This document shows positions 22,884-34,505 of a stretch of DNA of 37,661 nucleotides, in pieces; position 1 is the stretch's first letter, and the number at the start of each line of letters is the position of its first letter. The DNA lies in IMG/VR virus record IMGVR_UViG_2526164599_000009, positions 1-37,661 of that record; one strand, given 5' to 3'. The translations under genes were made by a program, and so were the position numbers. The notes under the pieces are model-generated. The model was not told the DNA's origin. It searched no databases and saw nothing but the letters and a program-made list of their open reading frames with translations. This DNA comes from a virus (Duplodnaviria > Heunggongvirae > Uroviricota > Caudoviricetes).

Positions 22884-23484
22884 TTCGTTGTTACCACCAT
22901 CAGCCAGCAATTTCATGCGTTGTGCCGAAGCCGTCGGAACACGCATTACAGACATTCCGGTAGACCTCAACACGCTGTGGTCGCCGGACACCTGCCCGGT
23001 GCATCTGCTGCCTTATCTCGCCTGGGCGTTTTCCGTTGACCGCTGGGATCGCAACTGGCCGGAAGAGACAAAGCGACAGGTGATTCGTGATGCATGGCTG
23101 ATACACCGACACAAAGGGACCATCAGCGCACTGCGAAGAGCCGTGGAGCCTCTCGGTTACCTGATTGAAGTAAAGGAGTGGTGGCAACTCAACGAGGAGC
23201 CGGGAACATTTCGCATTGTTGTCGGAGTACTTGATCAGGGCATCACCAATGAAATGTATCAGGAACTTGAGCGCCTTATTGCGGATGCAAAACCAGTAAG
23301 TCGCCATCTGACGGGGCTGGCGATCAGCCTGAGTGTGAACGGAAAGATTTTCGTTGGTACGGGATGCTATCACGGCGATGCCCTGACGGTTTATCCCTAC
23401 ACCCCGGAGTCCATTATTGTCGAAGGGGACTATTTCCCTGCCCCGGCCATTCATTTAATTGATAATCTGAGAGTAAACGCATGA
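22876..23484 (+). CDS. I: Baseplate protein (P2 gpI-like)
   Basis: ATG 22876 overlapping J stop; about 202 aa. Confidence 0.75.
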   Translation: MSNSLLPPSASNFMRCAEAVGTRITDIPVDLNTLWSPDTCPVHLLPYLAWAFSVDRWDRNWPEETKRQVIRDAWLIHRHKGTISALRRAVEPLGYLIEVKEWWQLNEEPGTFRIVVGVLDQGITNEMYQELERLIADAKPVSRHLTGLAISLSVNGKIFVGTGCYHGDALTVYPYTPESIIVEGDYFPAPAIHLIDNLRVNA

Positions 23485-25124
23485 CAGTGAAATACTACGC
23501 CATTCTGACTAATCAGGGCGCGGCACGACTGGCTAACGCGACGATGCTCGGCAGTAAGCTGAATCTGACGCAAATGGCCGTTGGTGATGCAAATGGTGTG
23601 TTACCAACACCAGACCCTGCACAAACAAAACTGATTAACCAGAAACGCATTGCACCGCTGAATCTTCTGAGTGTTGACCCTAACAATCAGAGCCAGATTA
23701 TTGCGGAGCAAATCATCCCTGAAAACGAGGGAGGATTCTGGATCCGTGAGATTGGTCTTTATGATGATGAAGGTGTACTCATTGCGGTGGCAAACTGCCC
23801 GGAAACGTACAAACCGCAGTTGCAGGAAGGCAGTGGACGCACCCAGACTATCCGCATGATTCTGGTTGTCACGAACACCGAAGCCATCACGCTGAAAATC
23901 GACCCGTCTGTGGTTCTGGCAACCCGCAAATATGTGGATGATAAAATATCAGAGCACGAACAATCACGACGTCACCCGGACGCCTCGCTGACCGTAAAAG
24001 GTTTTACTCAGTTAAGCAGTGCAATTAACAGTGAATCAGAAACACTGGCCGCAACACCGAAAGCGGTTAAGGCTGCATATGACCTGGCTAACGGGAAATA
24101 TACCGCCCAGAACGCCACCACTACACAAAAAGGGATTGTTCAGCTCAGTAGCGCCACGAACAGCACGTCTGAAACGCTGGCAGCGACACCAAAAGCTGTT
24201 AAGGTGGTAATGGATGAAACGAACAAGAAAGCACCATTAAACAGCCCGGCACTGACCGGAACGCCAACAACACCAACAGCGCCACAGGGGACTAATAATA
24301 CCCAGATCGCAAGCACAGCTTTCGTTATGGCCGCGATTGCCGCACTTGTAGATTCGTCACCTGATGCACTGAACACGCTGAACGAACTGGCTGCGGCGCT
24401 GGGCAATGACCCGAATTTTGCGACCACCATGACTAACGCGCTTGCGGGTAAGCAACCGAAGGATGCCATCCTGACGGCGCTGGCGAAGCTTGCTACATCA
24501 GCAGATAAACTCCCATATTTTACAGGGGCAGATCGTGCCGCGTTAACCGCGTTGACAAGTGTTGGACGTGCCATTCTTGGTAAAACCAGCACTCAGGGCG
24601 TTCTTGATTACCTTGGTTTGGGGGAAGGTTCTGCGCTGCCTGTTGGTGTGCCCGTTCCGTGGCCCTCAGCAACACCACCAACGGGCTGGCTGAAATGTAA
24701 CGGCGCAGCATTTTCTTCTGAAATGTATCCCGGACTGGCAAAGGCTTACCCCACCAATAAATTACCGGATTTACGGGGTGAATTTATTCGTGGCTGGGAT
24801 GATGGACGTAGTGCGGATGCGGGGAGAACAATATTATCCGCTCAAGGTGATGCCATACGTAATATCTATGGTGAGTTCAAGACTGTAAACACTGAAAATT
24901 ATTCAATATGGGAATCAGTAGGCTCGTTTAAGGGGGCAGTGGTGCCTTTAAATTCCTCAACAAACAATAGTTATTTCTCCTTAGTCAGAAGTATGGTGAC
25001 AGAAAGGACAGACGGCGCTGTTTACCCAAAAGTGATTGGCCTTGATGCTTCAAAAATTGTTCCAACTGCAAACGAAAACCGCCCACGCAACATTGCGTTT
25101 AATTACATCGTAAGGGCAGCATGA
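23481..25124 (+). CDS. H: Tail fibre protein (P2 gpH-like), constant part fused to variable cassette 1
   Basis: 547-aa ORF; tandem repeats LSSA(I/T)NS(E/T)SETLAATPKAVK; C-terminal 170 aa from the crossover site at about 24613 form an exchangeable cassette. Confidence 0.85.
   Translation: MTVKYYAILTNQGAARLANATMLGSKLNLTQMAVGDANGVLPTPDPAQTKLINQKRIAPLNLLSVDPNNQSQIIAEQIIPENEGGFWIREIGLYDDEGVLIAVANCPETYKPQLQEGSGRTQTIRMILVVTNTEAITLKIDPSVVLATRKYVDDKISEHEQSRRHPDASLTVKGFTQLSSAINSESETLAATPKAVKAAYDLANGKYTAQNATTTQKGIVQLSSATNSTSETLAATPKAVKVVMDETNKKAPLNSPALTGTPTTPTAPQGTNNTQIASTAFVMAAIAALVDSSPDALNTLNELAAALGNDPNFATTMTNALAGKQPKDAILTALAKLATSADKLPYFTGADRAALTALTSVGRAILGKTSTQGVLDYLGLGEGSALPVGVPVPWPSATPPTGWLKCNGAAFSSEMYPGLAKAYPTNKLPDLRGEFIRGWDDGRSADAGRTILSAQGDAIRNIYGEFKTVNTENYSIWESVGSFKGAVVPLNSSTNNSYFSLVRSMVTERTDGAVYPKVIGLDASKIVPTANENRPRNIAFNYIVRAA
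24613..24635 (+). other. Invertase crossover site 1 (hix/gix-like), inside H
   Basis: TTGGTTTGGGGGAAGG shared with five other sites; left half-site differs here (GATTACC instead of GAAAACG). Confidence 0.55.
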
Positions 25125-25146
25125 AAACGTTGGTTTGGGGGAAGGT
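25124..25146 (+). other. Invertase crossover site 2
   Basis: GAAAACGTTGGTTTGGGGGAAGG; resembles the Hin hixL core as recalled. Confidence 0.6.
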
Positions 25147-25638
25147 TCTGCGCTGCCTGTTGGTGTGCCCGTTCCATGGCCCTCAGCCACACCACCAACG
25201 GGCTGGCTGAAATGCAATGGTGCAGCATTTTCTTCTGAAATGTACCCCAAACTGGCAAAAGCCTACCCCGCAAATAAATTACCGGATTTACGGGGAGAAT
25301 TTATTCGCGGCTGGGATGATGGGCGCGGGGTGGATGCTGGCCGCGCTTTGCTTAATTGGCAGCCACACACAATTTTGGATCATGCACACTATATGGAATT
25401 ATGGACCGGGAACGGACTTGCCGTGGAAAGTGCACGGGAAGGATTAAACCCTGGAATACTGGCTACATACGGGGACGGGGGAATAGTTAAAACAGACGAA
25501 CCCGGTTTAAGGGTGCCTTCCTCACTACGAGCCATTAGCTCTCGTAATGTAAAACGGTTTGGTGAAATTAGTGGAAATGTAGGTACAGAAACTCGCCCTC
25601 GCAACGTTGCATTCAATTACATCGTAAGAGCCGCATGA
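25135..25638 (+). CDS. Promoterless tail-fibre C-terminal cassette 2
   Basis: 167 aa; shares the first roughly 60 aa (GEGSALPVGVPVPWPSATPPTGWLKCNGAAF...) and last roughly 15 aa (RPRN[IV]AFNYIVRAA) with the H C-terminus. Confidence 0.6.
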   Translation: MGEGSALPVGVPVPWPSATPPTGWLKCNGAAFSSEMYPKLAKAYPANKLPDLRGEFIRGWDDGRGVDAGRALLNWQPHTILDHAHYMELWTGNGLAVESAREGLNPGILATYGDGGIVKTDEPGLRVPSSLRAISSRNVKRFGEISGNVGTETRPRNVAFNYIVRAA

Positions 25639-25655
25639 AAACGTTGGTTTGGGGG
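25637..25655 (+). other. Invertase crossover site 3
   Basis: GAAAACGTTGGTTTGGGGG. Confidence 0.6.
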
Positions 25656-26125
25656 AAGGCTCTGCACTGCCCGTTGGTGTGCCTGTTCCATGGCCCTCAG
25701 CCACACCACCAACGGGCTGGCTGAAATGTAACGGTGCAGCATTTTCTTCTGAAATGTATCCCGGACTGGCAAAGGCTTACCCCACAAATAAATTACCGGA
25801 TTTACGCGGAGAATTTATCCGTGGCTGGGATGATGGGCGAGGAATTGATGCGGCACGCGCTTTATTGAGCATTCAAAACGGGATGTTGGAAAAACACCGC
25901 CATATTGTTGTAGCTAACGATGGATATGACACAAAAGATGAATGGGAGTTGGCTACGATTTTCAAAAAAACATATACACAAGGCAGGGGACTTGATGCCA
26001 CAAATACAGGAGGGAGTTTGATTCCATCACCAACGCTTCATTCACGAGGAAGTATTGGTAACACAGGTGGTAGTGAAACCCGCCCCCGCAATATTGCATT
26101 TAACTATATCGTGAGGGCGGCTTAG
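25649..26125 (+). CDS. Promoterless tail-fibre C-terminal cassette 3
   Basis: 158 aa; conserved N- and C-terminal ends, unique middle. Confidence 0.6.
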   Translation: MGEGSALPVGVPVPWPSATPPTGWLKCNGAAFSSEMYPGLAKAYPTNKLPDLRGEFIRGWDDGRGIDAARALLSIQNGMLEKHRHIVVANDGYDTKDEWELATIFKKTYTQGRGLDATNTGGSLIPSPTLHSRGSIGNTGGSETRPRNIAFNYIVRAA

Positions 26126-26131
26126 TTATAT

Positions 26132-26743
26132 TCAACTGGCTGATGCCAGTGGTATTTCCGGCAAGTTGATATCTGGTGCCATGTTTATATCCATTGCGTT
26201 CAGCGCGTCTATATAATCCAGCACGGCATTAAGCCGGGTGGTTTCTGCCTGCGTCAACTTCCGCCCGGCCCGCAACTTCAACTGAATCAGACTTATGGAA
26301 TCCATTGCCGCATCAGCCAGTGACTGGCGCTTGGTTTCTGCCGCTTCTACTGCGGCACGATGTTGTACCTCAGTATCTGTCACCCATTTTTCACCATCCC
26401 ATTTATCGTATGGTGTTAACGGGGCGATAGTGGTTGTATTTTTCGGGTAGTCACCCAGCGCCGTGATTTCTTCGGTGTTTCCCGTGTCAGTGCTATAGAC
26501 GGTTTCACCACGATGGTCTGGCGCATACTCCCATGAATTTAAATCCTCCGAACGGCGAATAGCATAGCCAGATTTATGTGCGCCTGGGGCATCTAAACAG
26601 GAATTAGCCGGAATACCAACACCCACAGCAAGATATTCAGTTGATTCGGAAATATATTCCCGTGTCTCACCATCATAGTTATAAACGACGATGTTTCCTG
26701 CCTGTACGGCAATAAGGTCATCATTTAATATCGCGTTATTCAT
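26132..26743 (-). CDS. Tail fibre assembly chaperone (Tfa/gpG-like)
   Basis: 203-aa ORF starting 1 nt inside the stop of minus-strand cassette 4 (TAATG); typical position for a fibre chaperone. Confidence 0.7.
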   Translation of the reverse strand: MNNAILNDDLIAVQAGNIVVYNYDGETREYISESTEYLAVGVGIPANSCLDAPGAHKSGYAIRRSEDLNSWEYAPDHRGETVYSTDTGNTEEITALGDYPKNTTTIAPLTPYDKWDGEKWVTDTEVQHRAAVEAAETKRQSLADAAMDSISLIQLKLRAGRKLTQAETTRLNAVLDYIDALNAMDINMAPDINLPEIPLASAS

Positions 26744-27205
26744 TATGCGGTTCTCACAATATAATTGAAGGCAATATTGCGTGGGCGGGCTTCATTCCCC
26801 CCTGAGGATTCCGTTCTGTATTGACTGGTAAATCTACCGTTAATTGCACCTTGCCGGACGGCGTTATCTGTCGACAACAGACTATCCCCTCCTTTGTCAT
26901 TTGGCACCAGTACCGTGTTATCCCACGCGTCCCATGACCGAATATTATGATAATGACTTCCTGTTAACCACCCCTGCATGCTTAAGATGCCCCTTCCGGC
27001 ATCCACCCCGCGCCCATCATCCCAGCCACGGATAAATTCACCGCGTAAGTCTGGTAATTTATTGGTGGGGTAAGCCATTGCCAGTCTGGGATACATTTCA
27101 GAAGAAAATGCTGCGCCGTTACATTTCAGCCAGCCCGTTGGTGGTGTTGCTGAGGGCCACGGAACAGGCACACCAACGGGCAGTGCAGAACCTTCTCCTA
27201 AACCA
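26743..27205 (-). CDS. Promoterless tail-fibre C-terminal cassette 4 (inverted)
   Basis: reads GLGEGSALPVGVPVPW... in frame upstream of the track GTG start at 27171; unique middle, conserved ends; directly followed by the Tfa gene. Confidence 0.6.
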
Positions 27206-27214
27206 ACGTTTTCA
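27190..27214 (-). other. Invertase crossover site 4 (inverted)
   Basis: reverse complement reads GAAAACGTTGGTTTAGGAGAAGG. Confidence 0.55.
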
Positions 27215-27715
27215 TGCGGCTCTTACGATGTAATTGAATGCAACGTTGCGAGGGCGAGTTTCTGTACCTACATTTCCACTAATTTCACCAAACCGTTTTA
27301 CATTACGAGAGCTAATGGCTCGTAGTGAGGAAGGCACCCTTAAACCGGGTTCGTCTGTTTTAACTATTCCCCCGTCCCCGTATGTAGCCAGTATTCCAGG
27401 GTTTAATCCTTCCCGTGCACTTTCCACGGCAAGTCCGTTCCCGGTCCATAATTCCATATAGTGTGCATGATCCAAAATTGTGTGTGGCTGCCAATTAAGC
27501 AAAGCGCGGCCAGCATCCACCCCGCGCCCATCATCCCAGCCGCGAATAAATTCTCCCCGTAAATCCGGTAATTTATTTGCGGGGTAGGCTTTTGCCAGTC
27601 CGGGATACATTTCAGAAGAAAATGCTGCACCATTGCATTTCAGCCAGCCCGTTGGTGGTGTGGCTGAGGGCCATGGAACGGGCACACCAACAGGCAGCGC
27701 AGAACCTTCCCCCAA
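27212..27715 (-). CDS. Promoterless tail-fibre C-terminal cassette 5 (inverted near-identical copy of cassette 2)
   Basis: 167 aa, differs from cassette 2 by one residue (G for K). Confidence 0.6.
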   Translation of the reverse strand: MGEGSALPVGVPVPWPSATPPTGWLKCNGAAFSSEMYPGLAKAYPANKLPDLRGEFIRGWDDGRGVDAGRALLNWQPHTILDHAHYMELWTGNGLAVESAREGLNPGILATYGDGGIVKTDEPGLRVPSSLRAISSRNVKRFGEISGNVGTETRPRNVAFNYIVRAA

Positions 27716-27727
27716 ACCAACGTTTTC
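27705..27727 (-). other. Invertase crossover site 5 (inverted)
   Basis: reverse complement reads GAAAACGTTGGTTTGGGGGAAGG. Confidence 0.6.
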
Positions 27728-28289
27728 ATGCTGCCCTTACGATGTAATTAAACGCAATGTTGCGTGGGCGGTTTTCGTTTGCAGTTGGAACAATTTTTGA
27801 AGCATCAAGGCCAATCACTTTTGGGTAAACAGCGCCGTCTGTCCTTTCTGTCACCATACTTCTGACTAAGGAGAAATAACTATTGTTTGTTGAGGAATTT
27901 AAAGGCACCACTGCCCCCTTAAACGAGCCTACTGATTCCCATATTGAATAATTTTCAGTGTTTACAGTCTTGAACTCACCATAGATATTACGTATGGCAT
28001 CACCTTGAGCGGATAATATTGTTCTCCCCGCATCCGCACTACGTCCATCATCCCAGCCACGAATAAATTCACCCCGTAAATCCGGTAATTTATTGGTGGG
28101 GTAAGCCTTTGCCAGTCCGGGATACATTTCAGAAGAAAATGCTGCGCCGTTACATTTCAGCCAGCCCGTTGGTGGTGTTGCTGAGGGCCACGGAACGGGC
28201 ACACCAACAGGCAGCGCAGAACCTTCCCCCAAACCAACGTTTTCGTTTTTATCCCTACCTATACCAACTATGTATTTTTCACGAAACAA
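27726..28289 (-). CDS. Promoterless tail-fibre C-terminal cassette 6 (inverted copy of the H C-terminus)
   Basis: from GEGSALPV onward identical in protein and DNA to H residues about 378-547; the N-terminal 17 codons of the track ORF are outside the cassette. Confidence 0.6.
   Translation of the reverse strand: MFREKYIVGIGRDKNENVGLGEGSALPVGVPVPWPSATPPTGWLKCNGAAFSSEMYPGLAKAYPTNKLPDLRGEFIRGWDDGRSADAGRTILSAQGDAIRNIYGEFKTVNTENYSIWESVGSFKGAVVPLNSSTNNSYFSLVRSMVTERTDGAVYPKVIGLDASKIVPTANENRPRNIAFNYIVRAA
28222..28245 (-). other. Invertase crossover site 6 (inverted)
   Basis: reverse complement reads GAAAACGTTGGTTTGGGGGAAGG; about 60 bp from the invertase start. Confidence 0.6.
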
Positions 28290-28303: not shown

Positions 28304-28903
28304 ATGCAAATTGGCTATATTCGTGTGTCAACAAATGACCAGAACACGGATTTACAACGCAATGCACTGAACTGCGCAGGATGTGAACTGATTTTTGAAG
28401 ATAAAATCAGCGGAACGAAATCAGCCAGACCGGGATTGAAAAAACTGCTCAGAACGCTATCAGAAGGAGATACGCTGGTTGTCTGGAAGCTGGACAGACT
28501 GGGCAGAAGTATGAAACACCTGATCACGCTTATTGAGGAATTGCGGGAAAAAGGTGTTAATTTCCGTAGTCTGACGGACAGCATTGACACATCAACACCC
28601 ATGGGGCGTTTCTTTTTTCACGTCATGGGGGCTTTAGCCGAAATGGAACGTGAATTAATTGTAGAGCGTACACTGGCCGGGCTGGCAGCAGCACGCGCAC
28701 AAGGACGCATTGGCGGACGTCGCCCGAAGTTGACAAAAGAACAACACGAGCAAATAGCGAGGCTGATTAAAAACGGTCATGACAGGAAACAACTGGCGAT
28801 CATTTACGACATCGGCATATCGACGATTTATCGTTATCACCCTGTAGGCGATATACAGGCTGAAGAAACAACCAGGCAGACTCAGGAAAATGAAAACCGC
28901 TAA
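28304..28903 (+). CDS. Serine DNA invertase (Hin/Gin/Cin/Pin family)
   Basis: ATG 28304; N-terminus MQIGYIRVSTNDQNTDLQRNAL with catalytic Ser in the RVST context; C-terminal HTH (GISTIYRY); 199 aa. Confidence 0.9.
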   Translation: MQIGYIRVSTNDQNTDLQRNALNCAGCELIFEDKISGTKSARPGLKKLLRTLSEGDTLVVWKLDRLGRSMKHLITLIEELREKGVNFRSLTDSIDTSTPMGRFFFHVMGALAEMERELIVERTLAGLAAARAQGRIGGRRPKLTKEQHEQIARLIKNGHDRKQLAIIYDIGISTIYRYHPVGDIQAEETTRQTQENENR

Positions 28904-28921
28904 TCTGACCATTAGCGGTTT
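28893..28921. terminator. Bidirectional hairpin between convergent invertase and gpU genes
   Basis: perfect stem ACCGCTAAT / ATTAGCGGT with loop CTGACC, flanked by A-run upstream and TTTTG downstream; overlaps the invertase stop. Confidence 0.5.
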
Positions 28922-28929
28922 TGCGTTAA

Positions 28930-29424
28930 TCAAAACAGCCCTTTAACGGAGCTGGCCGCGCTGTTAAGGGATGATGTGACCTTATCTTTGAAGCCGGACA
29001 GCATATCACTGAACGATGAGGATTGCAGGCGCTCCCGCAAATCCTCATCACAGCGTTCAAGAGTCAGTGAAAATTCTATCTTTTTCGCCTTACCGTAGCG
29101 ATCAAACTCGGAGCGGGTCGTATTCGTTCCGGTCAGGACATACATGCCGTAAATCTGCCCGACACCATCAATCAGAGGCCAGGGGCGTCCTGTATATGCC
29201 TGCGAGGTCAGCAACGAAAGCGACACTTCGCCACCTGTAATTTCAGGATAAAGCACACCAGAAAGAACGATGCGATCATCGCCTGCCCCGATATACTGCC
29301 AGCTTGCTGAACGGTTAACGCGTTCATTTTTCACATGCCGCCAGCTTTTGTTTTGCTGTAACTGCTGATGCGGCAACGTGCGCAGCTCAAAAACAAACAT
29401 GCCATAGATCATCATCATGGCCAT
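28930..29424 (-). CDS. U: Tail protein (P2 gpU-like)
   Basis: 164-aa ORF with RBS GAGGAG; WPLIDG...IYGMYV pattern as in P2 U as recalled. Confidence 0.75.
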   Translation of the reverse strand: MAMMMIYGMFVFELRTLPHQQLQQNKSWRHVKNERVNRSASWQYIGAGDDRIVLSGVLYPEITGGEVSLSLLTSQAYTGRPWPLIDGVGQIYGMYVLTGTNTTRSEFDRYGKAKKIEFSLTLERCDEDLRERLQSSSFSDMLSGFKDKVTSSLNSAASSVKGLF

Positions 29425-29430
29425 GACTCC

Positions 29431-32238
29431 TCAATCTTTATCGTAAAAACTGCCACGCCCGGCACGGGCGCGCCGTTCCATCTCTGCCCTGACCATTTCA
29501 CCGACCAGTTTCGCCAGTTCGCGGGGATTCTGTGTAACAACGTTATGCAGATGAACATGAATTTCACCACCAAATCCGGAGGCAACAGGCTCCCGGTTAC
29601 GGGAAGTTACAGGAACTGATGCCACTGGAGATCGTATGGCCTCCGCCACCGGGCGGGAGCTGGCCGCAACAACAGGGACCAGCGCCGGAGGCAGCGGAGC
29701 CGGGACCACGGGTGTGATATTAATTGCGGGGGCAGGCTTACTGGCCTGCGCAATCTTCCGCTCCTGCCACTCCCCACGAACAGCAAGTGCTCGGGGCAGG
29801 TTTTTAAAGACAATATCGCCGGGGCCAATGCGTTTTTTCGTCTCCTCAACCAGCTTACCTGTGTTATCAGCAATTTTGCTGAGTCTGCGTAGCGTCCCGG
29901 TATTGCTGTCTGTGAGCGGTTTGTTGTCTTTGGGTTTATCACCTCCGGTGCCATTGCCATTTTCCACAGGCTTCGGCGGATTGATTTTCGCCAGGTCCCC
30001 TTGAAGTAAGGCAACCTTGTCCTGAAGAATGGCCGCACGCTGTGCGTCTTCGATTTTCTTTCTCGCCCTTTCCGCTTCATCCGGAAGAACACCGAGTTTT
30101 TCAAGTATCCACGCCAGCGTATCCAGCAACATTTTTGCAGGCGTCAGAACAAGCTGTAACGCGCCACCAAGAACGTTACCGAATATCTCGCCAGCACTGG
30201 TACATTTATCCAGCGTTTCCTTGCTGGACTCCATCGGTGACAGCAGCGATTTAAACCAGTTAAACACCTGGCTGATCCCGCTTCCGATTGCGTCAAAAAC
30301 AGGGCCAAACCGTTCAAAGGTTTCACGCAACGGGTTCAGCCTTTCCATAATCCCGCTGAACACCCCGGCAAAAAATGCCCTGATGGGATCCCAGTATTTC
30401 CAGATAAGAACGGCAGCGCCGGCAAGCGCAGCCACGATAAGACTAACCGGACTGAACAGCGCCCCGATAGCTCCTCCCAGCAAAGAAACAGAACCCGTCA
30501 CCATTCCCCACAGCGCAGGCAACACCCTGATGACATTCATTGACCGGGTAAGAATGTCGAAACCAAGACGCAAGGTGGCCAGCTTCCCGTAAAGCACCCC
30601 AATAACCAGCGACAACGAGCCAATCGTTGCAGTCATTGCCAGCAACGCACCGCTTGCTATCAGTAGCTGGCGCGTCAGTACCGGATGGGCCTGCGCCAGC
30701 GAGGTGATTTTTTCAAGCACCCGCGTGAGCCACTGCGTGACAGAACGCAGCGGACCGTCAACCAGATCACTGATGCGAATACGAAGACCTTCCCATGCGC
30801 TGTCGAGATTTTTCAGGTCTCCATCAAGATTATCGGCCATTACTTTTGCAACGCGATCGGCCTCTCCCCTTGCCCCCTGCAATTCTCTGGTCAGTTTTTG
30901 CAGTTCTCCTGAACCAGCCGCCGCAACAAGCGTCTGCAAACCAACGAACGCCTCTTCTCCGGCGATGTCCTTGAAGAAGGAGACCTGGTCCACCTGTCCG
31001 TATTTTTGTGTCGCCTTATAGAGATCAAGCAGCACATCCTCCATCGGGCGCATTTTGCCTCTGGCGTCAGCAACTGACACCCCCTGCTCTTTCAGTGCAT
31101 CAGCCGCAGCTTTTGGCGGTGATGCAAGGCGGGACAGACTTGCGCGCATGGCCGTACCAGCATCGCTTCCGCGAAGACCATTATTGGCAAGCATCCCGGC
31201 CATGGCCGCCGCTTCTTCAAGACTGATACCAAGTTTTGCGGCAACCGGACCGGTATACTTCATGGTTTCGCCCAGCGCGCGTAAATCAGTATTGGTCCGG
31301 GTGAATGCTGCTGTCAGCGTATCGCCAACCCGGTCCATTTGATCGGCTGTCAGGTTGAACTGTGTGAGGATATTGGAGCCTATATCAGCCGTCTCGCCGA
31401 GTTCGACGCCACCTGCCAGCGCCATATTAAGAACACCGGGCAATGCGGCCTGAATGGCCTGCGGAGTAAAACCAGCCATTGCCAGAAAGCTCTGCCCACT
31501 GGCGGCATCACTCGCAGTAAACTGTGTTTCAGAACCAAGTTTTAACGCCTGCTCACGCAGCGCCTTAAACTGCGGGCTGTTTTTGTCGATTCGCGTCAGT
31601 GCCTGAACGCGGGACATCTCTTTGCCGAACCCGATCGCAGGCTGCAAAAAACGCCCGGCAGCATAGCCGCCAGCCGCTGCAGCACCAATTGCCAGCGCAC
31701 CACCTGTTTTCAGTTTTCCCGCGGTTTCCTGCGCGCGCGAATACCGCTCACGCGCCCGCGTTACACGCGCAAGCGCCTGCCGTTCGCGTTCAAGCTGGTT
31801 GTTGTACTGTTCGGTGCGTCTGATGGCCTGCTGGATGGTGTTATCGCTGCCTGTCAGGGAAATGCCGTGGCGTTTCAGCTCTCCGCCAAGTTCCCGCATT
31901 TTCTGAATTTCCCGTGTGCGCGATTCATTCAGGCGTTCAAGCCGGCTGCTTAACTGCTGCATCAGCTTTTGTTGTTTTTCGCTGAGCACTGTACCCGTGC
32001 GTTGTAACTGATTAAGGGCGTTAAGCTGGCGTCGTGCTTTCACGATACCCGCATCCGCTTTACTGACAGCGTCGCGGGCGCGCTCAAATGAACGCGCCTG
32101 ACGCTCGAGATTTTTGATCGCCCCCTGCGTTCGCTGGATGGAGTCACCAAACTGCCCCATCAGGCGGCGGGCGTTTTCGGCAGGCCGGGTCAGCCTGTCA
32201 ACGGCGCTGAAAGCGACCCGGATATCAAGAGTCTTCAT
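29431..32238 (-). CDS. T: Tail tape measure protein (P2 gpT-like)
   Basis: roughly 935-aa ORF from ATG 32238 (RBS GGGAG) or 947 aa from GTG 32274; coiled-coil N-terminus, Gly/Ala-rich hydrophobic middle. Confidence 0.85.
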   Translation of the reverse strand: MKTLDIRVAFSAVDRLTRPAENARRLMGQFGDSIQRTQGAIKNLERQARSFERARDAVSKADAGIVKARRQLNALNQLQRTGTVLSEKQQKLMQQLSSRLERLNESRTREIQKMRELGGELKRHGISLTGSDNTIQQAIRRTEQYNNQLERERQALARVTRARERYSRAQETAGKLKTGGALAIGAAAAGGYAAGRFLQPAIGFGKEMSRVQALTRIDKNSPQFKALREQALKLGSETQFTASDAASGQSFLAMAGFTPQAIQAALPGVLNMALAGGVELGETADIGSNILTQFNLTADQMDRVGDTLTAAFTRTNTDLRALGETMKYTGPVAAKLGISLEEAAAMAGMLANNGLRGSDAGTAMRASLSRLASPPKAAADALKEQGVSVADARGKMRPMEDVLLDLYKATQKYGQVDQVSFFKDIAGEEAFVGLQTLVAAAGSGELQKLTRELQGARGEADRVAKVMADNLDGDLKNLDSAWEGLRIRISDLVDGPLRSVTQWLTRVLEKITSLAQAHPVLTRQLLIASGALLAMTATIGSLSLVIGVLYGKLATLRLGFDILTRSMNVIRVLPALWGMVTGSVSLLGGAIGALFSPVSLIVAALAGAAVLIWKYWDPIRAFFAGVFSGIMERLNPLRETFERFGPVFDAIGSGISQVFNWFKSLLSPMESSKETLDKCTSAGEIFGNVLGGALQLVLTPAKMLLDTLAWILEKLGVLPDEAERARKKIEDAQRAAILQDKVALLQGDLAKINPPKPVENGNGTGGDKPKDNKPLTDSNTGTLRRLSKIADNTGKLVEETKKRIGPGDIVFKNLPRALAVRGEWQERKIAQASKPAPAINITPVVPAPLPPALVPVVAASSRPVAEAIRSPVASVPVTSRNREPVASGFGGEIHVHLHNVVTQNPRELAKLVGEMVRAEMERRARAGRGSFYDKD

Positions 32239-32461
32239 TGTCTGCACTCCCGCTGCGAAGTGCCGCCCGCTCACGCCAGCTAACCACTTCGCCGGGCGTC
32301 ATCATGAAGATTTCGGCGGGCGACCAGTTAAAAATAACGGCAATATCTGCCACAAAGTCTTCTATGTGCTCAAAGCACACAATCGTGATCAGGCTTCCGT
32401 CGCCTGTTCGTTCTTCCCGCCAGAGTCCGCACCGCTCAAAAAATTTACGGCAACCGCACAT
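32225..32461 (-). CDS. E' extension, expressed as E+E' by -1 frameshift
   Basis: -1 frame ORF continuing from AAT TTT TTG (forward 32438-32446) to 32225; overlaps the T start; analogous to P2 E/E' and lambda G/GT. Confidence 0.6.
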   Translation of the reverse strand: MCGCRKFFERCGLWREERTGDGSLITIVCFEHIEDFVADIAVIFNWSPAEIFMMTPGEVVSWRERAALRSGSADNEDS

Positions 32462-32754
32462 AACTGAATAAAGTCACGGGATGCCATTTTTTTGATCGTC
32501 ACTTCATCCAGTCGCGGTGATGTCACGCGTGACAGCAGCGTAAACATGGATTCCGCTTTCAGATTCAGCACATCAGACAGCGACAAATCTCGCAGAGATC
32601 CAGCCTGCTCAATAGCTCCGGTGATCTCCACATACGTGATTTTTTCGCCGCCTCGCTCAATTGGTTGGGTAAGTTTTACGCCACGCTCACTGGTTTCTTT
32701 CACAGTGTCAGCAACGACCGTGTTTTCGGTATCGATGTTTTTCGTCTCTTTCAT
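32389..32754 (-). CDS. E: Tail assembly chaperone (P2 gpE-like)
   Basis: 121-aa ORF with RBS AAGGAG; contains slippery TTTTTTG near its 3' end. Confidence 0.7.
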   Translation of the reverse strand: MKETKNIDTENTVVADTVKETSERGVKLTQPIERGGEKITYVEITGAIEQAGSLRDLSLSDVLNLKAESMFTLLSRVTSPRLDEVTIKKMASRDFIQLCAVAVNFLSGADSGGKNEQATEA

Positions 32755-32808
32755 CAGGAAACTCCTTTCAGTCAGAGGCGACGCACTGCGCCGCCTGCAT
32801 ATTACTTA

Positions 32809-33321
32809 TCAGCCAAGCCCAAGCGCGGAACGGATGCGATCGGGCACAATGTCCTTGCCGTCCTTCCGGTAAATGAAGTTCAGCAGGTCAATCTCCCACA
32901 ACGGGCGATCGTTAACACTCAGCTTGTAGTAGGTGTTTTTAATGGCGTAAGTGTGTGATGTGGCTTCGCCCTGTTTGGCTTCCCCCATATCAATTTCCGT
33001 CACACGTCCGCGCATCTCGATTTCATACAGATCGCTTTCTGCATCGGTGTAGTATTCACCCGCAAAACGCAGCAGCGTGCCGTCAATCGTGCCGCCATAT
33101 TTAAGGAACAGCGCACGAACAGCTCCCCCCATAACAAAACTCGCATCAAGCGCGGAGTCGTCCAGACCGAGATCAATACTTACCGCCCCCATCATGCCAC
33201 CACCACGATAGCTGTCGGTTTTGCGCGTCAGTTTAGGCAGGGTGACGGACGTCACCTTACCCACTTCGTTTTCACCATCCACAAACAGCGTAAAAAAGCG
33301 AAGATGTTTTGGTACAGCCAT
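32809..33321 (-). CDS. FII: Tail tube protein (P2 gpFII-like)
   Basis: 170-aa ORF immediately downstream of the sheath gene. Confidence 0.85.
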   Translation of the reverse strand: MAVPKHLRFFTLFVDGENEVGKVTSVTLPKLTRKTDSYRGGGMMGAVSIDLGLDDSALDASFVMGGAVRALFLKYGGTIDGTLLRFAGEYYTDAESDLYEIEMRGRVTEIDMGEAKQGEATSHTYAIKNTYYKLSVNDRPLWEIDLLNFIYRKDGKDIVPDRIRSALGLG

Positions 33322-34505
33322 CAGACACCTCCCAGCACCGCAAATGCGGGACCAAAGAATTCATCAGTAAACGACTGGTAAAGCTCCATGTCTTCCAGCG
33401 GGGGAACAGGCGTATATTTGTAGCGAATACGCACACGCCCCTGACGTAAATTCGTGGTGCCGTTATCCACCACGTCATACCAGCACGACGCCCCAATCAG
33501 TTTCCCGGCAGTAACCAGTGAATCCAGTTTTGCCCTGATGGCACTGATAACATCTTTCACGTTCGCAGGCGTCAGTGGACTGTCGATGGTTTCAAACTGC
33601 GCTTCCGCAATTGAATCAGCCAGCACCTGTGCGGTTCGGGTATACACCTCAAAGATGTAGGCGTTCGTTTCCGGTGTGCGGTTGCCCCAGAAGCGGAACC
33701 CGTTGCGACGAATAATGGTCGTGATTTCTTTGTTGTTGAGGCTGTTGGCATCGCTGTCTTCGGCCTGCAACGACCAGAACACATGCCTGGACATCCCCAG
33801 CACATTTTTAACCGGAACGTTGGACAGTGATTTGTGCCATCCCTGCTCATGGTCAATGTACGCACGAAGGCCGCACGCATAGGCAGGCGCGGGGAACGTT
33901 TCGTTTTTGCCACTTTTCGGGTTGTAGGCGATGAAGTCCGGCCATAAGAGCATCACCTCACGTTCGTTGAATTTCTGGCGGTAGGTAATCACCTCAGCCA
34001 TCGTGTTACAGCCGTGACATGAGGCATACACAAACGCGCGCAGTTTACCCGCAATCACGCACAGGGATTTTGTCACCGCCTCCGTGTCCAGCTCCGGCGC
34101 GGCCAGAATACGCGGACGGTATCCGATGCTTTCATCCTGCTCTGCAACAAGCAGCGCATACATCCCCGTATAGCTGCCGTCAGATTCAGAACCACCGATA
34201 ACCAGTTGATCCTGCGTCTTTCCGTCTTCTTCTTTGTGTTCAGCCACGCGAACGACGATCACCTTTGTGCTCACCTGGTCTGCGATGGCCTTAAGCGCAC
34301 GATAAAGCGTCCCCGTTGTCCCGCATTTTCCCAGCACGTCATTGACGCGGGTCAGCAGTGTGGGCTTGTTCAGCGGGAACAGCTTCGCGTCCGCATCATC
34401 CGCCGTTGCCACGATACCGATAACGCTGGAATCAACATCGTTAATCGCTGTTACCAGGTCGGTATTTTCCGTAACACGGGCACCATGAAAACGAGTTTCA
34501 CTCAT
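33321..34505 (-). CDS. FI: Tail sheath protein (P2 gpFI-like)
   Basis: 394-aa ORF with RBS AAGGGG; size and context as P2 FI. Confidence 0.9.
   Translation of the reverse strand: MSETRFHGARVTENTDLVTAINDVDSSVIGIVATADDADAKLFPLNKPTLLTRVNDVLGKCGTTGTLYRALKAIADQVSTKVIVVRVAEHKEEDGKTQDQLVIGGSESDGSYTGMYALLVAEQDESIGYRPRILAAPELDTEAVTKSLCVIAGKLRAFVYASCHGCNTMAEVITYRQKFNEREVMLLWPDFIAYNPKSGKNETFPAPAYACGLRAYIDHEQGWHKSLSNVPVKNVLGMSRHVFWSLQAEDSDANSLNNKEITTIIRRNGFRFWGNRTPETNAYIFEVYTRTAQVLADSIAEAQFETIDSPLTPANVKDVISAIRAKLDSLVTAGKLIGASCWYDVVDNGTTNLRQGRVRIRYKYTPVPPLEDMELYQSFTDEFFGPAFAVLGGV

What the first reader, a model, noticed from the sequence alone, without database searches (positions are those of the whole stretch)
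24613..28245. Roughly 1.04-kb near-perfect inverted duplication of two fibre cassettes
About 24613-25650 is repeated as a reverse complement at about 27201-28245, identical over the first cassette and with only a few substitutions in the second. Beyond the short crossover sites this gives long homology for RecA-mediated inversion and suggests past gene conversion between cassette arms. Long inverted repeats around an invertible locus are also a classic source of assembly chimeras, so the arrangement needs confirmation.
Basis: seen in the sequence. Interest (0 to 1): 0.55.

Follow-up and report, generated by a model that had tools for sequence, protein, structure and literature searches.

The report
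Duplicated tail-fibre cassettes in invertible switch
The 1-kb inverted repeat is two interchangeable phage tail-fibre tip cassettes present twice, as mirror images, inside a well-known kind of DNA-inversion switch in a P2-like E. coli prophage; it is an ordinary variant that may be partly an assembly artefact.

Summary
Window 24613-25650 is the reverse complement of 27200-28237 (1038 nt). Cassette A has 0 mismatches. Cassette B has 3 clustered mismatches (25245, 25249, 25250). Shuffled sequence gives inverted matches of at most 18 nt.

The repeat sits in a six-site, Gin/Cin/Min-type multiple-inversion switch of a P2-like prophage. The layout is H constant part, then cassettes A, B, C, tfa(-), D(-), B'(-), A'(-), then a serine invertase. 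The near-perfect repeat begins and ends at the 2-bp cores of crossover sites 1/6 and 3/4, so it is exactly two whole cassettes.

Related E. coli prophages carry 2 to 6 such cassettes around the same C-tfa-D core. One of them, in E2348/69, was shown experimentally to shuffle. Cassette duplicates also occur in complete genomes.

My best explanation is an exchange between two copies of the locus that were in different inversion states. This duplicated A-B and left only 4 distinct tips in 6 slots.

An assembly chimera is not excluded. The source is a draft assembly, a sister draft has a hairpin-like mis-join at this locus, and the closest relative has one copy of each cassette. The two arms carry different natural B alleles, which argues for two real copies. 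Interest is low.

The parts
23481..24612 (+). Constant 5' part of tail-fibre gene H, currently fused in frame to cassette A (ORF 23481-25124, 547 aa)
   Evidence: ORF list. Pfam Phage_tail_fib, Phage_fiber_2 and Collar on the product.
24601..24626 (+). Crossover site s1: TTCTTGATTACC TT GGTTTGGGGGAA (12 + 2-bp core + 12)
   Evidence: Pattern scan. The repeat's outer boundary falls at its core.
24615..25124 (+). Cassette A, the expressed tip with a collar domain
   Evidence: Identical to A' at 512 of 512 nt.
25118..25143 (+). Crossover site s2
25132..25638 (+). Cassette B, silent, carrying the common allele
   Evidence: Identical at the nucleotide level in several other genomes.
25632..25657 (+). 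Crossover site s3. The near-perfect identity ends about 5 nt after its core (25644-25645).
25646..26125 (+). Cassette C, silent
   Evidence: Part of the C-tfa-D core found in most of the related loci classified.
26132..26743 (-). The single tail-fibre assembly (chaperone) gene, directly downstream of D
   Evidence: ORF list. Pfam Caudo_TAP_N and Caudo_TAP.
26743..27204 (-). Cassette D, silent, on the minus strand
27193..27218 (-). Crossover site s4. Its head half-site is GGTTTAGGAGAA.
27212..27718 (-). Cassette B', a copy of B with a 3-nt patch (Lys to Gly). Its partner positions are 27605, 27601 and 27600.
   Evidence: The exact protein occurs in only 3 contigs.
27707..27732 (-). Crossover site s5
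27726..28235 (-). Cassette A', an exact copy of A
28224..28249 (-). Crossover site s6
28304..28903 (+). Serine DNA invertase, 199 aa, starting MQIGYIRVST
   Evidence: Pfam Resolvase and HTH_7. Matches the Gin invertase structure 4m6f at E = 3e-91 over residues 1-185.
24613..25650 (.). Left arm of the near-perfect inverted duplication (A plus B)
27200..28237 (.). Right arm of the near-perfect inverted duplication (B' plus A')

Best explanation
The repeat is a block of two tail-fibre tip cassettes (A and B) present twice, in mirror orientation. It lies inside a six-site multiple-inversion switch of a P2-like prophage.

How the switch works: a Gin-like serine invertase recombines any two oppositely oriented 26-bp sites. 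Each site lies at the 5' end of a cassette. Recombination fuses a different cassette to the constant part of tail-fibre gene H and so changes the receptor-binding tip.

How the duplication most likely arose (inferred): two copies of the locus were in different inversion states. They could be sister chromosomes or a co-resident related phage. They exchanged at a crossover site or in the homology around it. One copy, [H | A B | D tfa C' | inv], recombined with another, [H | C tfa' D' B' A' | inv]. This gives H | A B C tfa' D' B' A' | inv, plus a reciprocal two-cassette locus.

Consequences (inferred): six slots hold only four distinct tips. There are 60 rather than 240 distinct isomers. A and B are over-represented among the isomers. 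RecA-dependent inversion across the arms can occur but produces nothing the invertase does not.
For: Shown here:
- Six sites, three on the plus strand and three on the minus strand, each with a TT core and an inner AAAC(C/G)/GGTTT dyad.
- An invertase of the Gin family.
- Cassettes all carry collar domains, with a conserved ~220-nt head and a conserved RPRN(I/V)AFNYIVR tail.
- The near-perfect repeat starts at the core of s1/s6 and ends within 6 nt of the core of s3/s4, so it is exactly two cassettes.
- Close relatives carry the same cassettes in other orders and orientations around the C-tfa-D core, with 2 to 6 cassettes. This is as expected for inversion isomers and for array expansion and contraction.
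- The predicted reciprocal product, a two-cassette locus, exists in STEC1590.
- The E2348/69 relative was shown experimentally to be a shufflon with four coexisting variants (PMC4272514).
- Cassette duplicates occur in complete genomes. 23CRST024 has A+ ... A- with 9 mismatches, all in the N-terminal part. EcE.CRE.COL has a direct duplicate. P1-like plasmid pMTY9975 has 17 cassettes with perfect duplicates in both orientations.
- The two arms carry different B alleles, and both alleles occur naturally in other assemblies.
- Enumerating isomers gives 240 labelled states, 60 of them distinct.
Against: - No reads were available, so the arrangement is unverified.
- The source is a draft contig (AIHI01000013.1).
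- None of 5,426 complete E. coli genomes has this arrangement over 80% or more of the 5.6-kb query.
- The sister draft AIHJ01000027.1 begins with an inverted piece of the invertase gene joined to A. That is a physically implausible hairpin-like end at the same locus.
- The closest independent relative, JHTA01000011.1, has 99.5-99.8% identical flanks and one copy each of A, B', C and D.
- The exact mirror order is what a greedy merge of two isomers of a four-cassette locus over the shared 1.56-kb C-tfa-D segment would give. It is only 16 of 240 labelled isomers.
- A and the common B allele are identical at the nucleotide level in many genomes. The identity of the arms therefore does not date the event or prove a sister-copy origin.
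Confidence: 0.65

Rival explanations
1. Assembly chimera. The true locus has four cassettes (A, B, C-tfa-D). The culture held several inversion isomers. The assembler merged isomer H|A B C tfa' D'|inv with isomer H|C tfa' D' B' A'|inv across the shared C-tfa-D segment, and so used A and B twice.
For: - The source is a draft assembly.
- Clonal cultures of a related lysogen contain all isomers at once (PMC4272514).
- Every junction in the window exists in some isomer of a four-cassette locus (reasoning).
- The sister draft AIHJ shows a hairpin-like mis-join at this locus.
- Relative JHTA has four single-copy cassettes.
- The mirror order is the predicted artefact.
Against: - B and B' differ at three adjacent positions, and each version is a natural allele seen in other assemblies. 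A single B copy cannot yield both.
- Contamination of the consensus by reads from A or C would also have changed linked diagnostic positions 10-30 nt downstream, which stay B-type.
- Real inverted duplicates exist in complete genomes.
Confidence: 0.25
2. Gene conversion or homogenisation. Two originally different cassettes on one arm were overwritten by copies from the other arm through RecA-dependent conversion.
For: - Short-patch conversion clearly occurs in this family. The 3-nt patch in B' matches the A/C version.
- N-terminal segments are mosaic and not tied to cassette type across genomes.
Against: - Variable parts of different cassette types are unrelated in sequence, so there is no internal homology to drive conversion across a whole cassette.
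- The identical tract is exactly two cassettes bounded by site cores.
- In 23CRST024 the duplicate A copies differ only in the conserved N-terminal part. Conversion there diversifies duplicates rather than homogenising them.
Confidence: 0.05
3. Merge of two separate loci. The strain carries a second related element (another P2-like prophage or a P1-like plasmid) with A and the common B allele, and its reads were folded into this locus.
For: - E. coli genomes have a median of two places matching this region.
- A and B are identical at the nucleotide level in many unrelated genomes. This would explain the presence of two B alleles.
Against: - The window is one continuous P2-like prophage with single flanks.
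- Only one AIHI contig appeared in the look-ups for H-A, B and B', although the lists were capped.
Confidence: 0.05

Closest known systems
Min multiple-inversion system of plasmid p15B (Sandmeier, Iida, Arber 1990 and 1992; recalled from memory, papers not held)
   Same: - Serine invertase of the Gin/Cin/Pin/Hin family.
- Six crossover sites inside tail-fibre coding sequence.
- Alternative 3' cassettes fused to one constant 5' part.
- My enumeration gives 240 isomers. As I recall it, this is the number reported for p15B.
   Different: - The host element here is a P2-like chromosomal prophage, not a P1-like plasmid.
- Cassettes here are short collar-domain tips (~0.5 kb), with one shared tfa gene.
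- Two of the six cassettes are duplicates, so there are only 60 distinct isomers and 4 tips.
Three-site 'shufflon' in a P2-like prophage of EPEC E2348/69 (Goldberg et al. 2014, PMC4272514)
   Same: - Same locus family: same gene order, same C-tfa-D core, and an invertase 99.8% identical at the nucleotide level.
- Inversion and four coexisting variants were shown by sequencing and PCR.
   Different: E2348/69 has three sites and three distinct tips with no duplicates. The window has six sites and a mirror duplication.
C segment of phage P1 (Cin/cix) with its ~0.6-kb internal inverted repeats
   Same: - Long inverted repeats begin exactly at the crossover sites. I measured 636 nt at 98% in NC_005856.
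- The switch changes the tail-fibre C-terminus.
   Different: - P1's repeats are the shared first part of two different variable ends, in a two-site switch with two chaperone genes.
- Here the repeat contains entire cassettes, including their variable receptor-binding parts.
R64-type shufflon (Rci, pilV)
   Same: Multiple inversions among several sites, with alternative C-termini for one protein.
   Different: R64 uses a tyrosine recombinase and 19-bp sfx sites, and switches a pilus adhesin gene (from general knowledge). The recombinase here is a serine invertase.

Membership tests
Gin/Cin/Pin/Hin/Min (Din) serine-invertase switches | A small serine recombinase (~190-200 aa, catalytic domain plus C-terminal HTH) encoded next to the invertible DNA | tested here: met
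   A 199-aa ORF at 28304-28903. Pfam Resolvase and HTH_7. Gin structure 4m6f at E = 3e-91, residues 1-185.
Gin/Cin/Pin/Hin/Min (Din) serine-invertase switches | 26-bp crossover sites with a 2-bp core and imperfect dyad symmetry, in inverted orientation | tested here: met
   Six sites with a TT core and inner AAAC(C/G)|GGTTT, three in each orientation. The match to the family consensus rests on my own knowledge of it.
Gin/Cin/Pin/Hin/Min (Din) serine-invertase switches | A Fis-dependent recombinational enhancer in the 5' part of the invertase gene | tested here: inconclusive
   The 5' 140 nt align without gaps to P1 cin. By my count about 100 of 140 positions (~70%) are identical; the tool's 'mean column identity' is 86%. 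The alignment covers the segment annotated as the Cin enhancer. This stretch also encodes the conserved N-terminus, so the similarity does not prove an enhancer.
Gin/Cin/Pin/Hin/Min (Din) serine-invertase switches | The segment actually inverts | not testable with these tools
   No reads were available. There is indirect support. Relatives with 99.5-99.8% identical flanks carry the same cassettes in other orders and orientations. The E2348/69 homologue inverts experimentally.
p15B Min-type multiple inversion system | More than two crossover sites, giving overlapping invertible segments and several alternative 3' ends for one tail-fibre gene | tested here: met
   Six sites, five invertible segments and 240 labelled isomers.
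p15B Min-type multiple inversion system | Orthology to Min and residence on a P1/p15B-type plasmid | tested here: not met
   The element is a P2-like chromosomal prophage, with P2-type portal, capsid, baseplate and tail genes. Identity to Min itself was not measured.
R64-type shufflon | Rci tyrosine recombinase acting on sfx sites | tested here: not met
   The only recombinase at the locus is a serine invertase.

The most novel reading that the evidence does not exclude
The mirror duplication is a captured intermediate of a general birth-and-death process. Exchange between two copies of a multi-inversion locus that sit in different inversion states, catalysed by the invertase itself at the crossover sites, would expand one array with inverted duplicates and shrink the other. 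This would account for the range from 2-cassette to 17-cassette arrays seen in P2-like prophages and P1-like plasmids.
Probability: 0.3. Interest if true: 0.45.

Novelty: new member of a known kind. Interest (0 to 1): 0.22.

Why it matters
- For annotation: six 'phage tail protein' ORFs here encode only four receptor-binding tips. Only the cassette fused to H is expressed.
- For assembly quality: this locus family is very common in E. coli. 3,093 of 5,426 complete genomes match part of the 5.6-kb query. Because it is heterogeneous within cultures, short-read assemblies can either duplicate or collapse cassettes.
- For phage biology: if the duplication is real, it shows how host-range cassette arrays grow and shrink. 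Nothing here points to a new mechanism.

Tried and rejected
- The original p15B Min papers (PMC206102, PMC53420), the P1 cin paper (PMC553230) and the paper I believe describes the source assembly (PMC3370608) are not held. Statements about them rest on memory, and the sequencing method of the source assembly could not be verified.
- I tried to find the H-side contig of the sister draft AIHJ through an exact look-up of baseplate protein J. The protein is far too common (listed in 9,032 blocks of the collection), and AIHJ was not among the places shown.
- A per-locus measure of the 'longest inverted repeat at 97% or more' was misleading. BLAST alignments run on into the ~90% conserved cassette heads and fall below the filter. 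I used the cassette-by-cassette comparison instead.
- NCBIfam gave no family for H, tfa or the cassettes.
- Records with two hits to cassette A (MB19, A16, Z142-6, PEC209) turned out to carry A-like tips in other, two-site P2- or e14-type elements, not duplicates within one locus.
- I considered that transcription from the converging tail operon supplies tfa in either orientation. A strong bidirectional terminator-like hairpin at 28893-28922 makes this doubtful, and I left it open.
Full report
**Observation**

The repeat finder gives an inverted repeat with arms 24610-25875 and 26975-28240 (1266 nt, 98%). A base-by-base comparison shows it has two parts.
- The first part is a near-perfect core, 24613-25650 against 28237-27200 (1038 nt). 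Its only mismatches are at 25245, 25249 and 25250.
- The second part is a further ~225 nt at about 88-90% identity.

The longest exact run is 632 nt. Twenty shuffles of the window gave at most 18 nt.

**Anatomy**

The window is a P2-like prophage. It carries P2-type terminase, capsid, baseplate V/W/J/I, tail fibre H, gpU, tape measure, tube and sheath genes. It comes from a draft E. coli assembly, contig AIHI01000013.1 of GCA_000250375.2.

A pattern scan finds six 26-bp sites built as 12 nt + TT core + 12 nt.
- Three are on the plus strand: s1 24601-24626, s2 25118-25143, s3 25632-25657.
- Three are on the minus strand: s4 27193-27218, s5 27707-27732, s6 28224-28249.

Each site lies at the 5' end of a ~0.5-kb cassette. 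Each cassette encodes a collar-domain tip with three parts: a conserved ~72-residue head, a variable middle, and a conserved RPRN(I/V)AFNYIVR tail.

The order along the window is: H constant part, A+, B+, C+, tfa-, D-, B'-, A'-, and then a 199-aa serine invertase at 28304-28903. The invertase matches the Gin structure at E = 3e-91.

The near-perfect repeat starts at the core of s1/s6 and ends within 6 nt of the core of s3/s4. It is therefore exactly cassettes A and B. The extra ~225 nt is only the conserved head of C against that of D. A equals A' at 512 of 512 nt. B and B' differ at 3 of 509 nt.

**Relatives**

Part of the 5.6-kb query around the locus matches 3,093 of 5,426 complete E. coli genomes. 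None matches 80% or more of the query in one place.

I classified cassettes in about 30 fetched loci. Most contain the same C-tfa-D core. The core appears in either orientation, with 0 to 4 further tfa-less cassettes around it (types A, B and E to L). Examples, with cassette letters as assigned:

| Strain | Arrangement |
|---|---|
| STEC1590 | C+ tfa- D- |
| KOr024 | D+ tfa+ C- B- |
| GPEC1031 | A+ B+ G+ F+ D+ tfa+ C- |
| HD12481 | H+ D+ tfa+ C- I- B- A- |

E2348/69 has H+ C+ tfa- D- and an almost identical invertase. Goldberg et al. 2014 described a three-repeat shufflon in a P2-like prophage of this strain, and this locus appears to be it. They found four variants coexisting in clonal cultures and confirmed them by PCR (PMC4272514).

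Prophages with flanks 99.5-99.8% identical to the window carry the same cassettes in other orders. This is what inversion isomers look like.

**Mechanism**

Shown:
- The components of a Gin/Cin/Min-type multiple-inversion switch are present.
- The repeat is made of whole cassettes bounded by site cores.

Inferred:
- Inversion between any plus-strand site and any minus-strand site fuses another cassette to H.
- Enumerating all reachable states gives 240 labelled isomers for six sites, and four for the E2348/69 layout. The four match the published count. As I recall it, 240 is the number reported for p15B Min.
- Because A equals A' and B nearly equals B', only 60 isomers are distinct and only four tips are encoded.
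- Under equal inversion rates, A and B would each be fused to H in about 43% of states, and C and D in about 7% each.

**Origin of the duplication**

A simple route (inferred) is an exchange between two copies of the locus in different inversion states. It would occur at a crossover site or in the ~300 nt of homology around it. [H|A B|D tfa C'|inv] recombining with [H|C tfa' D' B' A'|inv] gives the window arrangement. The reciprocal product is a two-cassette locus like that of STEC1590.

Duplicates are not unique to this window.
- 23CRST024 has A+ ... A- with 9 mismatches, all in the conserved head.
- EcE.CRE.COL has a direct duplicate.
- P1-like plasmid pMTY9975 has 17 cassettes with several perfect duplicates in both orientations.

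A and the common B allele are identical at the nucleotide level in many genomes. I therefore cannot tell a sister-copy exchange from recombination with a related phage, and I cannot date the event.

**Gene conversion**

The 3-nt difference in B' (TATCCCGGA in place of TACCCCAAA) matches the version in A and C. The B-type positions 10-30 nt downstream are unchanged. This looks like a short conversion patch.

Across genomes, the alleles of the conserved head are not tied to cassette type. Conversion or recombination among heads is therefore common. This does not explain the identity of whole cassettes, because the variable parts of different types are unrelated.

**Artefact question**

Points against a real duplication:
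- The source is a draft assembly.
- Cultures of such lysogens are mixtures of isomers.
- Every junction in the window exists in some isomer of a four-cassette locus. A merge of two isomers across the shared 1.56-kb C-tfa-D segment would give exactly this mirror order. That order is only 16 of 240 labelled isomers.
- The sister draft AIHJ01000027.1 starts with 275 nt of inverted invertase gene joined to A. It then runs D+ tfa+ C- B'- A- and the invertase. This is a hairpin-like end that cannot be a single real molecule without a second invertase copy.
- JHTA01000011.1, the closest independent relative, has H-D+ tfa+ C- A- B'- with no duplicate.

Points for a real duplication:
- The arms carry two different B alleles. 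The B' protein is found in only three contigs (AIHI, AIHJ, JHTA). The B protein is found in at least 24 contigs. One physical copy cannot yield both.
- Cross-contamination of the consensus would have changed linked positions as well.
- The AIHJ contig also contains two identical A copies in inverted orientation. A true inverted repeat is one way an assembler could run out into the wrong flank there.

I put the probability of a real duplication at about 0.65.

**Comparison with known systems**

- In function and architecture this is a Min-type multiple-inversion system. It sits in a P2-like prophage rather than a P1-like plasmid.
- It belongs to the same locus family as the E2348/69 shufflon.
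- P1's C segment offers a precedent for long inverted repeats starting at the crossover sites. I measured 636 nt at 98% in NC_005856. Those repeats are the shared first part of two different ends, not whole duplicated cassettes.
- It is not an R64-type shufflon, because the recombinase is a serine invertase.
- Whether a Fis enhancer is present is unresolved. The 5' end of the gene aligns to the annotated Cin enhancer region, but that stretch is also conserved coding sequence.

**Verdict**

It is partly off: block duplication explains the arms better than gene conversion between them. The feature is a new member of a known kind and of low interest. Read depth, B-allele ratio and one spanning long read would settle whether the duplication is real.

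Noticed in passing
window 26132-26743 (-); compare L031-L034: The locus has one tail-fibre assembly gene, lying downstream of D. Cassettes A, B and C have none, and in the present state tfa is antisense to the H operon. In other prophages an A-like tip (about 95% identical over its variable part) is followed directly by its own tfa. How tips without a tfa are assembled, and whether the conserved RPRN(I/V)AFNYIVR tail lets one chaperone serve all tips, is unexplained.
   Followed up: partly
window 28893-28922 and 28930-34505 (-): The gpU, tape-measure, tube and sheath genes lie on the strand opposite to H and converge on the invertible region. As I recall it, classical P2 has them in the same direction as H. 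A 12-pair hairpin with T-runs on both strands sits between the invertase stop and the gpU stop, and looks like a bidirectional terminator. The same layout is seen in all the related E. coli loci of this type that I fetched.
   Followed up: partly
L009 (NZ_CP135665.1, plasmid pMTY9975_untypable1, 82119-92874): A P1-like plasmid carries 17 collar-type cassettes next to its invertase. Several are perfect duplicates in both orientations: C four times, A three times, G, K and J twice. If the assembly is right, this is a far larger array than the six sites I recall for p15B.
   Followed up: partly
L020 (AIHJ01000027.1, first ~860 nt of the contig): The contig starts with the reverse complement of the first 275 nt of the invertase gene joined through a crossover site to cassette A. 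This mirrors the A-invertase junction 3 kb further on. It is probably an assembler overrun at an inverted repeat.
   Followed up: yes
window 24700-24760, 25215-25275, 25730-25790 and their minus-strand partners; L001-L017: Alleles of the conserved ~220-nt cassette head are mosaic. The same short variants (for example TACCCCAAACTGGCAAAAGCC against TATCCCGGACTGGCAAAGGCT) occur with different cassette types in different genomes. This indicates frequent exchange among heads.
   Followed up: partly
L013 (NZ_CP092244.1, COL60J, 1503316-1507507): This 'complete' genome has the same locus with many frameshifted or partial cassettes, and an A-like cassette at each end. It is likely a long-read assembly with uncorrected indels rather than real decay.
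   Followed up: no
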